47,756 nucleotides of DNA from Promethearchaeota archaeon. GTDB lineage: Archaea; Asgardarchaeota; Lokiarchaeia; Sigyniarchaeales; SOKP01. Every line of letters begins with the position of its first letter. The first letter of the stretch is position 1. A program made the translations under genes and the position numbers. Below are positions 43,540 through 43,800 of this stretch, in pieces. The DNA lies in NCBI GenBank assembly GCA_048941015.1, contig JBHLNZ010000019.1, positions 1-47,756 of the forward strand, written 5' to 3'. The notes under the pieces are model-generated. The model was given only the letters and a program-made list of their open reading frames with translations. It had not been told where the DNA came from and ran no database searches.

Positions 43540-43583
43540 CCGTCTCCACCAATAACTAGCATTTTCTTATTGATATCATTGAT
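43540..43583 (-). promoter_or_regulatory. Putative eukaryote/Loki-type SECIS element
   Basis: Minus strand: ATGA (43579-76), TATCAATAA, loop GAAAATGCTAG, TTATTGGTG, GA (43546-45); 9-bp stem with 2 G:U pairs and unpaired AAAA; lower helix weak. Confidence 0.75.
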
Positions 43584-43800
43584 TTTTTTTTATTGATTTA
43601 TTTTCTCTTTTTTGAATTTGTAATCAGGGAACGCTACCATATGCACAAAGTACTCAATTTCATCCATGATGATTTTCTTTACCAGTAATGATTTCTTTAC
43701 AACTTTGACATTCAAGTCTCATAAGTCATTGATTTTCCTTTATATCTACTGTATTTGAATGCCCACAAAATGGACATCTTACTAAGCTTTTATATATCAT
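43576..43800 (-). CDS. GDCCVxC-family small Cys-rich selenoprotein with four putative Sec residues
   Basis: Manual translation MIYKSLVRCPFCGHSNTVDIKENQ-U-LMRLECQSCKEIITGKENHHG-U-N-U-VLCAYGSVP-U-LQIQKRENKSIKKNQ*; TGA at codons 25, 47, 49, 59; downstream SECIS-like hairpin; adjacent merA. Confidence 0.85.

What the first reader, a model, noticed from the sequence alone, without database searches (positions are those of the whole stretch)
43576..43800. Hidden four-selenocysteine microprotein (GDCCVxC family) missed by the ORF caller
Seen: an ATG-started minus-strand frame with CxxC (C9/C12), CxxC (C31/C34), C52 and in-frame TGA at codons 25, 47, 49 and 59 (43728, 43662, 43656, 43626); protein-like sequence continues through every TGA. 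Known (consensus recalled from memory): GDCCVxC proteins read roughly TCPxCG...DAC..FYEC..C...GDCCVFCSYGSVPCPPIQ. Here NQ-U aligns to DAC, G-U-N-U-VLCAYGSVP-U-LQIQ aligns to GDCCVFCSYGSVPCPPIQ, and the CC pair has become UxU. Four random nonsense mutations would not all be TGA at or beside Cys columns. Inference: a selenoprotein with 4 Sec in 74 aa, an extreme density, from a family outside the Lokiarchaeal selenoproteins I recall (SPS, HdrA, VhuD/VhuU, Prx-like).
Basis: partly seen in the sequence, partly recalled or inferred. Interest (0 to 1): 0.95.

Follow-up and report, generated by a model that had tools for sequence, protein, structure and literature searches.

The report
Four-selenocysteine mini-protein upstream of merA
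A 74-codon gene that gene finders miss very probably makes a tiny zinc-ribbon protein in which four UGA "stop" codons are read as selenocysteine, in an Asgard-type archaeon (lineage inferred, not verified); it sits just upstream of a mercury-reductase gene and probably binds mercury-like metals.

Summary
Window 43576-43800 (-) is an ATG-started frame with TGA at codons 25, 47, 49 and 59.

- **Family:** read with U as C, it passes NCBIfam NF041374 (GDCCVxC, the same as "hypothetical protein GOS_B") at 51.4 bits against a cutoff of 40.
- **Conservation:** 25 distinct orthologues in two sister families keep TGA at all four columns (25/25) and TGT/TGC at the other five Cys columns. The 55-codon core has no indels, and dN/dS stays below 1 after the first TGA.
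- **Recoding signal:** a eukaryote-like SECIS (AUGA, 8-bp stem, 11-nt A-rich loop, GA) follows all 25 genes and none of 9 all-Cys relatives. Six of its 8 stem pairs show compensatory changes.
- **Machinery:** the genome has tRNA-Sec, SepSecS, a Sec-containing SelD, and PSTK-like and EFSec-like genes that fall below their curated cutoffs. TGA is otherwise a normal stop.
- **Function (inferred):** the four zinc-ribbon Cys stay Cys, and all four Sec lie among the five other conserved Cys positions. merA lies directly downstream in 7 of 25 loci, and bacterial Cys-type relatives sit in mer operons. Soft-metal (Hg) binding is therefore likely.

Caveats: Loki HdrA already has up to four Sec, so the density is new, not the count. 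This scan has already found the same family in other Asgard genomes.

The parts
43576..43800 (-). Selenoprotein CDS: 74 codons plus a UGA stop. Sec codons at 43728-43726, 43662-43660, 43656-43654 and 43626-43624. Zinc-ribbon Cys are C9, C12, C31 and C34. The second site is U25, U47, U49, C52 and U59.
   Evidence: NF041374, 51.4 bits against a cutoff of 40. (TGA 25/25 at each column; dN/dS about 0.28 after the first TGA). (AF2 pLDDT 93; four strands forming a zinc ribbon, then two helices).
43545..43579 (-). Eukaryote-like (type I) SECIS: AUGA 43579-43576 (its UGA is the gene's own stop codon), U 43575, 8-bp upper stem 43574-43567 pairing with 43555-43548, 11-nt loop GAAAAUGCUAG 43566-43556, G 43547, GA 43546-43545.
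   Evidence: present in 25/25 Sec-type loci and 0/9 Cys-type loci. (97.9% of cells paired; 6 of 8 pairs with compensatory changes; slid controls 32-45%). (same architecture behind MvhD/FrhD-type Sec genes of this genome). It fits the Asgard eSECIS model of PMC11227280.
43527..43542 (-). Second small hairpin directly 3' of the SECIS core (5-bp stem 43542-43538 with 43531-27, 6-nt loop), followed by a T5 run at 43524-43520. Possibly a SECIS extension or a terminator; role unknown.
   Evidence: helix 2 is 86.7% paired across 18 sequences, with mostly one-sided changes, so support is weaker. Sequence read.
42045..43448 (-). merA: mercury(II) reductase core without the N-terminal HMA (NmerA) domain. 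Same strand, 127 nt downstream of the selenoprotein stop. It has the redox CxxxxC and a C-terminal CC pair.
   Evidence: TIGR02053 at 531.9 bits against a cutoff of 454; the NF010311 alignment starts at profile position 99; a MerA homologue (57-97% identity) sits at the same relative position in 6 further orthologous loci from 4 genera.

Best explanation
This is a real, expressed selenoprotein gene. It belongs to a divergent Asgard-archaeal subfamily of the GDCCVxC / GOS_B small zinc-ribbon proteins.

**How it is decoded.** Four internal UGA codons are decoded as selenocysteine by the archaeal/eukaryal-type Sec pathway: tRNA-Sec, PSTK, SepSecS, SelD and EFSec. A single eukaryote-like SECIS hairpin lies immediately 3' of the ORF. 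The UGA inside the SECIS AUGA core is too close to be recoded and acts as the stop codon.

**What the protein looks like.** A classical four-Cys zinc ribbon (C9, C12, C31, C34) stays all-Cys. The five further conserved Cys positions of the family read U25, U47, U49, C52 and U59. Their spatial clustering into one site is inferred, not measured.

**What it does (inferred, about 50%).** This selenolate-rich site captures Hg(II) or similar soft metals in the cytosol. Where merA is adjacent, it serves the NmerA-less MerA as a separate metal-capturing or hand-off partner, or as a high-affinity sink. This parallels Cys-type GDCCVxC proteins encoded in bacterial merR-merT-merP operons.

The gene, Sec coding, SECIS, synteny and family are shown. 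Metal specificity and hand-off are inferred.
For: - **Family:** NF041374 at 51.4 bits against 40. A profile search found 971 relatives, with Cys at the Sec columns.
- **Conservation:** all four columns are TGA in 25 of 25 distinct orthologues from two families. The five other Cys columns are always TGT/TGC. The core has no indels. dN/dS is about 0.28 after the first TGA and about 0.42 before it.
- **SECIS:** present in 25/25 Sec-type loci and 0/9 Cys-type loci of the same phylum. Covariation: 97.9% paired, 6 of 8 pairs compensatory, no shuffle reaching the observed score. The same architecture follows MvhD/FrhD-type Sec genes in this genome. A model built from it finds one other site in the genome, behind another TGA-containing ORF.
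- **Machinery:** tRNA-Sec 61 bits and called SeC(tca) by ARAGORN; SepSecS 474.6 bits; PSTK-like 135.6 bits; SelD with its own TGA; EFSec-like 238.3 bits next to the tRNA-Sec/SepSecS cluster.
- **TGA is a normal stop:** it closes 331 of 2,274 long frames.
- **Function:** merA lies directly downstream in 7 of 25 loci across 4 genera, with MerA identity from 97% down to 57%. Cys-type relatives are in 354 plasmid records abutting merP/merT. MerA here lacks NmerA.
- **AUGA doubling as the stop codon** is reported for Loki VhuU (PMC4989117).
Against: - There is no direct evidence of translation or selenium incorporation.
- 18 of 25 loci have no merA within about 1.5 kb, and their neighbours are mostly unrelated. 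True MerA is above cutoff in only 2 of 61 close relatives. The protein therefore cannot be an obligate MerA partner.
- Selenolate-Hg bonds are very strong (general chemistry). That argues for sequestration rather than hand-off to MerA thiols.
- PSTK and EFSec matches are below the curated bacterial or euryarchaeal cutoffs.
- The fourth UGA is only 47 nt from the SECIS core. That is short by eukaryotic standards, and the archaeal limits are unknown.
Confidence: 0.85

Rival explanations
1. It is a real four-Sec selenoprotein, but not a mercury-specific one. It would be a general soft-metal or metalloid binder (As, Cu, Cd, Zn), or a redox protein using selenenyl-sulfide or diselenide chemistry, or one holding an unusual Se-ligated metal cluster. 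MerA adjacency would be only one of several contexts.
For: Only 7 of 25 loci have merA. In two species the neighbour is a P-type ATPase C-terminus with a YHS metal-binding domain. Other neighbours are unrelated: a methyltransferase, TPR, VWA and an F420 ligase. One plasmid Cys-type copy sits between merT and an ars cluster. Most known selenoproteins are redox enzymes (PMC13188914).
Against: The family-wide link is to mer genes specifically (merP/merT in most of 354 plasmid records). merA is rare in this clade yet recurs at exactly this position across 4 genera. A vicinal-Cys-type motif is typical of Hg(II) ligands in Mer proteins (established knowledge of MerA, MerT and MerF).
Confidence: 0.4
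2. The UGAs are read through as a standard amino acid (Cys or Trp via near-cognate or suppressor decoding), or the organism uses an altered code. No selenium is involved.
For: Public databases hold copies translated with W at the four columns. No direct selenium evidence exists.
Against: The W translations are gene-caller artefacts on contigs under 2 kb read with table 4 ('with_TGA=W'). TGA closes 331 of 2,274 long frames in this genome. The full Sec pathway is present. A covarying SECIS accompanies every TGA-bearing gene and no Cys-type gene. The TGAs sit on or beside Cys columns.
Confidence: 0.03
3. It is a decayed pseudogene of a GDCCVxC gene with accumulated nonsense mutations.
For: Frames with four or more TGA are common by chance in this AT-rich genome. 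Two orthologues (G054, G202) do carry an extra TAA or N-terminal damage.
Against: The same four columns are TGA in 25 of 25 distinct sequences that are only 42-80% identical. There are no frameshifts, dN/dS is below 1 downstream of every TGA, and no TAA or TAG falls at these columns.
Confidence: 0.01

Closest known systems
GDCCVxC domain-containing (seleno)protein, NCBIfam NF041374, the same as 'Hypothetical protein GOS_B' (Zhang & Gladyshev 2008, PMC2398784; Table 1 of PMC13188914)
   Same: Homologous over the whole domain. It has the same zinc-ribbon CPxCG...CxxC, the same nine Cys/Sec positions, the same C-terminal YGSVP[C/U]..IQ, and a mercury-gene context. The family is already known to include selenoproteins.
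   Different: Published Sec members are bacterial (marine metagenome), listed with one Sec and a bacterial in-ORF SECIS. Here there are four Sec, a 3-residue insert, the motif G-U-x-U-V-x-C in place of G-D-C-C-V-x-C, a 3'-UTR eukaryote-like SECIS and an archaeal host. I could not determine which Cys is Sec in the bacterial members.
Lokiarchaeial multi-Sec selenoproteins with lokiSECIS: HdrA (up to 4 Sec), VhuD, PrxL, VhuU (Mariotti 2016, PMC4989117; Huang 2024, PMC11227280)
   Same: The same recoding system: one AUGA...GA eukaryote-like SECIS just after the ORF serves several UGAs, and the AUGA can double as the UGA stop codon (VhuU.1). The SECIS geometry matches that of the MvhD/FrhD genes in this genome.
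   Different: The protein family is unrelated. Those are energy-metabolism or redox enzymes of hundreds of residues. This is a 74-residue metal-site protein with 5.4% Sec, and it is absent from the seven Asgard families listed.
NmerA (N-terminal HMA domain of MerA) and MerP
   Same: The proposed role is the same: a small Cys-rich (here Sec-rich) module that captures Hg(II) for the MerA core. The MerA here lacks NmerA.
   Different: There is no homology. The fold is a zinc ribbon plus two helices, not a ferredoxin-like HMA domain. The ligands are selenolates. The role has not been tested.
Eukaryotic selenoprotein P (SELENOP)
   Same: Many Sec residues decoded from one mRNA through 3'-UTR SECIS elements. 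A Sec-rich segment is implicated in binding Hg-Se species (my own knowledge, not tested here).
   Different: No homology. SELENOP is large, secreted and uses two SECIS elements. This is an analogy only.

Membership tests
NCBIfam NF041374 GDCCVxC / GOS_B | Profile score above the curated cutoff (40 bits) | tested here: met
   51.4 bits, E 9.6e-14, profile positions 1-57 of 58, with U read as C. With the TGAs scored as stops in six-frame mode the score is 37.7 bits.
NCBIfam NF041374 GDCCVxC / GOS_B | Literal GDCCVxC motif | tested here: not met
   the motif reads G-U-N-U-V-L-C. G, V and the last C are kept. D is replaced by U47, the first C by N48 and the second C by U49, and a 3-residue insert precedes the G. 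I therefore file it as a divergent subfamily (a homologue), not a canonical member.
NCBIfam NF041374 GDCCVxC / GOS_B | N-terminal zinc ribbon CPxCG...CxxC and C-terminal YG..PC..Q | tested here: met
   C9, P10, C12, G13, C31 and C34 are invariant. The C-terminus reads YGSVP-U-LQIQ. AF2 gives two beta-hairpins carrying the two knuckles.
NCBIfam NF041374 GDCCVxC / GOS_B | Association with mercury-resistance genes | tested here: met
   Bacterial members abut merP/merT. Here merA lies 127 nt downstream, and in 7 of 25 orthologous loci.
Selenoprotein (computational criteria) | In-frame UGA aligned with Cys in homologues | tested here: met
   column 25 is C in 134/143, column 49 in 142/143 and column 59 in 140/143. 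U47 is adjacent to the CC pair (column 48 is C in 118/143).
Selenoprotein (computational criteria) | UGA conserved in orthologues with coding constraint downstream | tested here: met
   TGA 25/25 at each of the four columns, no indels, median dN/dS 0.28 after the first TGA.
Selenoprotein (computational criteria) | SECIS element present | tested here: met
   Rfam has no matching model (searches found nothing).
Selenoprotein (computational criteria) | Sec machinery in the genome | tested here: met
   tRNA-Sec, SepSecS and SelD are above cutoff. PSTK-like (135.6 against 290.5 bits) and EFSec-like (238.3 against 242.25 bits) are below the curated cutoffs but are the best and plausible hits.
Selenoprotein (computational criteria) | Selenium shown in the protein | not testable with these tools
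   Needs 75Se labelling or mass spectrometry.
Asgard eSECIS-like element, type I (Huang 2024 model, PMC11227280) | Core 5'-(AU)GA ... [G/A]A-3', upper stem 7-15 bp with at most 2 mismatches, apical loop 8-20 nt rich in A | tested here: met
   AUGA-U, 8 bp with no mismatch, 11-nt loop starting GAAAA, then G-GA. Orthologues also use the documented AUGA_AA variant.
MerA (TIGR02053), the neighbouring gene | Equivalog score above cutoff, redox CxxxxC and C-terminal CC | tested here: met
   531.9 bits against 454.45. The sequence shows GGTCVNVGCVP and a C-terminal ...SCCIE. The NmerA domain is absent.

The most novel reading that the evidence does not exclude
This would be the first selenium-based mercury or soft-metal handling module in archaea. 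A 74-residue protein with a four-selenolate-plus-one-thiolate site captures Hg(II) for, or instead of, an NmerA-less MerA. [quoted passage not shown]
Probability: 0.45. Interest if true: 0.85.

Novelty: new variant of a known kind. Interest (0 to 1): 0.72.

Why it matters
- **It extends the Asgard selenoproteome.** Published lists give seven families, dominated by hydrogenase and heterodisulfide-reductase enzymes. This adds a small metal-site protein linked to detoxification.
- **It has an unusually high Sec density.** At 4 Sec in 74 residues it is the densest prokaryotic case I could find. A 2026 review gives 1-3 Sec per family, and Loki HdrA reaches four but in a large enzyme.
- **It is a compact test case for multi-UGA decoding.** One eukaryote-like SECIS drives four closely spaced UGAs while the UGA inside the SECIS still terminates. 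This is a small system for studying the origin of the eukaryotic Sec machinery.
- **It exposes an annotation blind spot.** Public databases hold this gene only as table-4 mistranslations (W at the Sec sites, some named 'Elf1') or as truncations.
- **It could bear on mercury cycling.** If the mercury link holds, selenium availability would affect Hg handling in the anoxic sediments where these archaea are thought to live.

Tried and rejected
- **Rfam:** scans at gathering and permissive thresholds found no SECIS family here, only chance hits with E of 5 or more.
- **Single-sequence folding** of the 142-nt 3' region was not significant (z = -1.3) and preferred an alternative GAGA/UCUC pairing. 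The SECIS became convincing only through comparative data.
- **MerA adjacency** at first looked specific to this genome, with 0 of 12 relatives. A wider sample overturned that: 7 of 25.
- **The one allowed genome-contig scan was wasted.** The tool built its DNA pattern through 'HGC' (TGY), which cannot match TGA genes, and returned one spurious bacterial hit. I therefore have no organism names. The 'Asgard/Loki-type' label rests on the archaeal/eukaryal Sec pathway, the eSECIS type described for Asgard archaea, and earlier notes, and is not directly verified.
- **Structure searches:** the PDB sequence profile, Foldseek and VIA-align wide (best Z 3.6) gave only generic zinc-ribbon pieces. That is not evidence that the fold is new.
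- **Model coordinates are not exposed**, so I could not measure the distances that would show the five non-ribbon ligands form one site.
- **Pfam alone** would have filed the protein as a generic zinc ribbon or Elf1-like protein below threshold.
- **The '1 TGA' phylum hits** (G145, G146) are ordinary stop codons, not one-Sec intermediates.
- **Rejected readings:** pseudogene, and reassigned or suppressed TGA (see rivals).

Full report
**1. The observation**

The minus-strand frame 43800..43576 starts with ATG. Read with TGA as U it gives a 74-residue product, followed by a fifth TGA and then Y-Q-TAA. Cys residues are at positions 9, 12, 31, 34 and 52. Under table 11 nothing is called here except a short out-of-frame ORF.

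The frame alone is not remarkable in this 29% GC genome. Of 9,703 TAA/TAG-delimited frames of 60-120 codons, 1,197 hold four or more TGA. The case therefore rests on homology and comparative evidence.

**2. Family**

With U read as C, the protein passes NCBIfam NF041374, 'GDCCVxC domain-containing (seleno)protein', at 51.4 bits against a cutoff of 40, over profile positions 1-57 of 58. Pfam gives only sub-threshold zinc-ribbon hits.

A profile of 12 orthologues searched against 1.84 billion representatives found 971 relatives at E <= 0.001. Aligned to the profile, 143 Cys-type relatives read CPxCG...DAC...CxxC...GDCCVFCSYGSVPCPPIQ. Their residues at the columns of interest are as follows:

| Column | This gene | Cys-type relatives (of 143) |
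|---|---|---|
| 25 | U | C in 134 |
| 47 | U | D in 99, C in 16 |
| 48 | N | C in 118 |
| 49 | U | C in 142 |
| 52 | C | C in 142 |
| 59 | U | C in 140 |

Three Sec codons therefore sit on near-invariant Cys columns. The fourth sits one residue before the CC pair. A 3-residue insert makes the exact register there slightly ambiguous.

The four zinc-ribbon Cys stay Cys in every sequence. All four Sec fall among the five remaining ligand positions.

**3. Comparative test of recoding**

Six-frame searches that read through stops found the gene in relatives, always with four in-frame TGA. In a 400-genome sample of the phylum, the four-TGA form occurs only in two sister families: f1 in 19 of 134 genomes and f2 in 7 of 14. 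Three other families carry the classical all-Cys form. The '1 TGA' rows there are ordinary stop codons.

In 25 distinct Sec-type sequences (42-80% identity to this one among the 12 aligned):
- each of the four columns is TGA in 25 of 25;
- the five Cys columns are TGT or TGC in 25 of 25;
- the 55-codon core has no indel;
- median dN/dS is 0.42 before the first TGA, 0.42 between the first and second, and 0.28 over everything after the first.

Purifying selection on the protein thus continues through every TGA.

One metagenomic variant (L089) has three Sec, with a non-Cys residue at column 25. The U-x-U...C...U part is therefore the constant core.

Public databases hold the gene only as table-4 mistranslations on contigs under 2 kb. 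These have W at the four columns and some are named 'Elf1'. Other copies are truncations.

**4. The recoding signal**

Directly after the ORF lies AUGA-U, an 8-bp stem, an 11-nt loop GAAAAUGCUAG, the return strand, and G-GA (43579-43545). The UGA of the AUGA is the gene's in-frame codon 75.

This matches the type I eukaryote-like SECIS model for Asgard archaea (PMC11227280). It also matches the report that the AUGA can double as the stop codon in Lokiarchaeota, where a UGA too close to the SECIS terminates (PMC4989117).

A pattern search finds such an element 26-63 nt after the core (one at 129 nt) in 25 of 25 Sec-type loci. It finds none in 9 Cys-type loci from the same phylum, which serves as a built-in negative control.

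On 18 distinct sequences the upper helix is 97.9% paired, and 6 of 8 pairs show changes on both sides. None of 500 shuffles reaches the observed covariation score, and slid registers pair at only 32-45% (a 7-sequence version is). A second 5-bp hairpin just 3' of the core is less well supported, at 86.7% paired.

In this genome the same architecture lies behind MvhD/FrhD-type Sec genes on contigs C5, C44 and C137. A covariance model built from the element finds one other site in the genome, behind another ORF with in-frame TGAs.

**5. Machinery and genetic code**

- tRNA-Sec is present at 61.4 bits, and ARAGORN calls it SeC(tca).
- It lies next to SepSecS (474.6 bits) and within a few kb of an EFSec-like gene (238.3 bits against a cutoff of 242.25).
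- A PSTK-like gene (135.6 bits, below cutoff) and a SelD gene with its own in-frame TGA are elsewhere in the genome.
- TGA closes 331 of 2,274 long frames, so the codon is not reassigned.

**6. Function**

The downstream gene (42045-43448, same strand, 127 nt away) is a true MerA, at 531.9 bits against the TIGR02053 cutoff of 454. It lacks the N-terminal HMA domain.

True MerA is rare among close relatives, above cutoff in only 2 of 61 genomes. My first 12 loci showed no MerA neighbour. In the wider set, however, a MerA homologue sits at the same relative position in 7 of 25 loci from four genera, with identity falling from 97% to 57%. The pair is therefore conserved and not an accident of this genome.

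Independently, Cys-type family members occur in 354 plasmid records, typically as merR-merT-merP-GDCCVxC. In two species the neighbour is a P-type ATPase C-terminus with a YHS domain. Elsewhere the neighbours are unrelated.

AlphaFold2 with a 128-sequence alignment gives a confident model (pLDDT 93). It shows two beta-hairpins carrying the CxxC knuckles, then a loop with U47 and U49, a short helix with C52, U59, and a C-terminal helix. No solved structure matches beyond zinc-ribbon pieces.

I infer a structural Zn site plus a functional site with four selenolates and one thiolate that binds Hg(II) or similar soft metals. It would act as a trans-acting substitute for NmerA, or as a sink. Metal specificity, hand-off and the geometry of the site are not shown.

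**7. Comparison with what is known**

NF041374 is 'Hypothetical protein GOS_B', a selenoprotein family found in the GOS marine metagenome with 11 Sec and 125 Cys sequences and bacterial SECIS elements (PMC2398784). It is listed with one Sec (PMC13188914, Table 1).

The Asgard selenoproteome papers list five families (PMC4989117) and seven families (PMC11227280), and this is not among them. Full-text searches for GDCCVxC, NF041374, Asgard plus mercuric reductase, and 'four selenocysteine' found no description.

The 2026 review says prokaryotic families have one Sec, with a few having 2-3. Mariotti 2016 reports Loki HdrA with up to four Sec sites, so the count here is not a record. The density, 4 in 74 residues, exceeds anything I found described for prokaryotes.

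I classify this as a new variant of a known kind: a divergent, archaeal, four-Sec subfamily decoded through a 3'-UTR SECIS, belonging to a family already known to include bacterial selenoproteins.

**8. Earlier notes**

This scan has already reported the same family on other Asgard genomes, with similar readings. Its first-reader notes on this window describe the SECIS and the merA module. I treated these notes as leads only. Everything cited above was tested here.

**9. Verdict**

The gene and its four Sec codons are real: about 0.93 for a genuine selenoprotein gene, and 0.85 for the full statement excluding metal specificity. A mercury or soft-metal role is likely but unproven, at about 0.5.

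Noticed in passing
G000 contig C32:3009-3092 (-) and the ORF upstream (L044:1536-2090:-); outside the window: The SECIS model built from this gene hits one other place in the genome (43 bits). It lies behind a roughly 180-codon ORF with two adjacent in-frame TGAs (...QPDVGC-U-U-EKVK...) and a TGA next to the AUGA core. The ORF has no Pfam family. A 4Fe-4S ferredoxin-like ORF lies upstream.
   Followed up: partly
G000 contig C130, minus strand (generic SECIS pattern hit); outside the window: A small hydrophobic ORF ending ...TTNGDG-U-PCLGISKLLLILKIL is followed by a canonical AUGA, 8-bp stem, A-rich 11-nt loop and GA element. It is a candidate tiny membrane selenoprotein with a UxC motif.
   Followed up: no
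Database proteins P0002-P0029: About 40 public copies of this gene exist only on contigs under 2 kb, where callers used table 4. They carry W at all four Sec columns, and some are named 'transcription elongation factor Elf1'. This is a systematic annotation artefact.
   Followed up: yes
L089:2273-2497 (+), metagenome contig: A natural three-Sec variant (...HGUPUIFCTYGSVPUITIQ) in which column 25 is neither Cys nor Sec. It still has an AUGA...GA hairpin downstream, and gene callers truncate it at the first TGA.
   Followed up: partly
G000 contig C119:15220-20805: A Sec gene cluster: SepSecS, tRNA-Sec (about 70 nt away) and an EFSec-like GTPase lie within about 6 kb.
   Followed up: partly
L019:2-1129 and L022:1-1134 (orthologous loci in two same-genus species): The convergent neighbour of the selenoprotein gene is the C-terminal part of a P-type ATPase ending in a YHS metal-binding domain. 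This is a second metal-related context besides merA.
   Followed up: partly
Window 43520-43542 (-): A conserved 5-bp GC-rich hairpin and a T5 run lie directly after the SECIS core and before merA. It is unclear whether this is part of the SECIS, a terminator, or an attenuator controlling merA read-through.
   Followed up: partly
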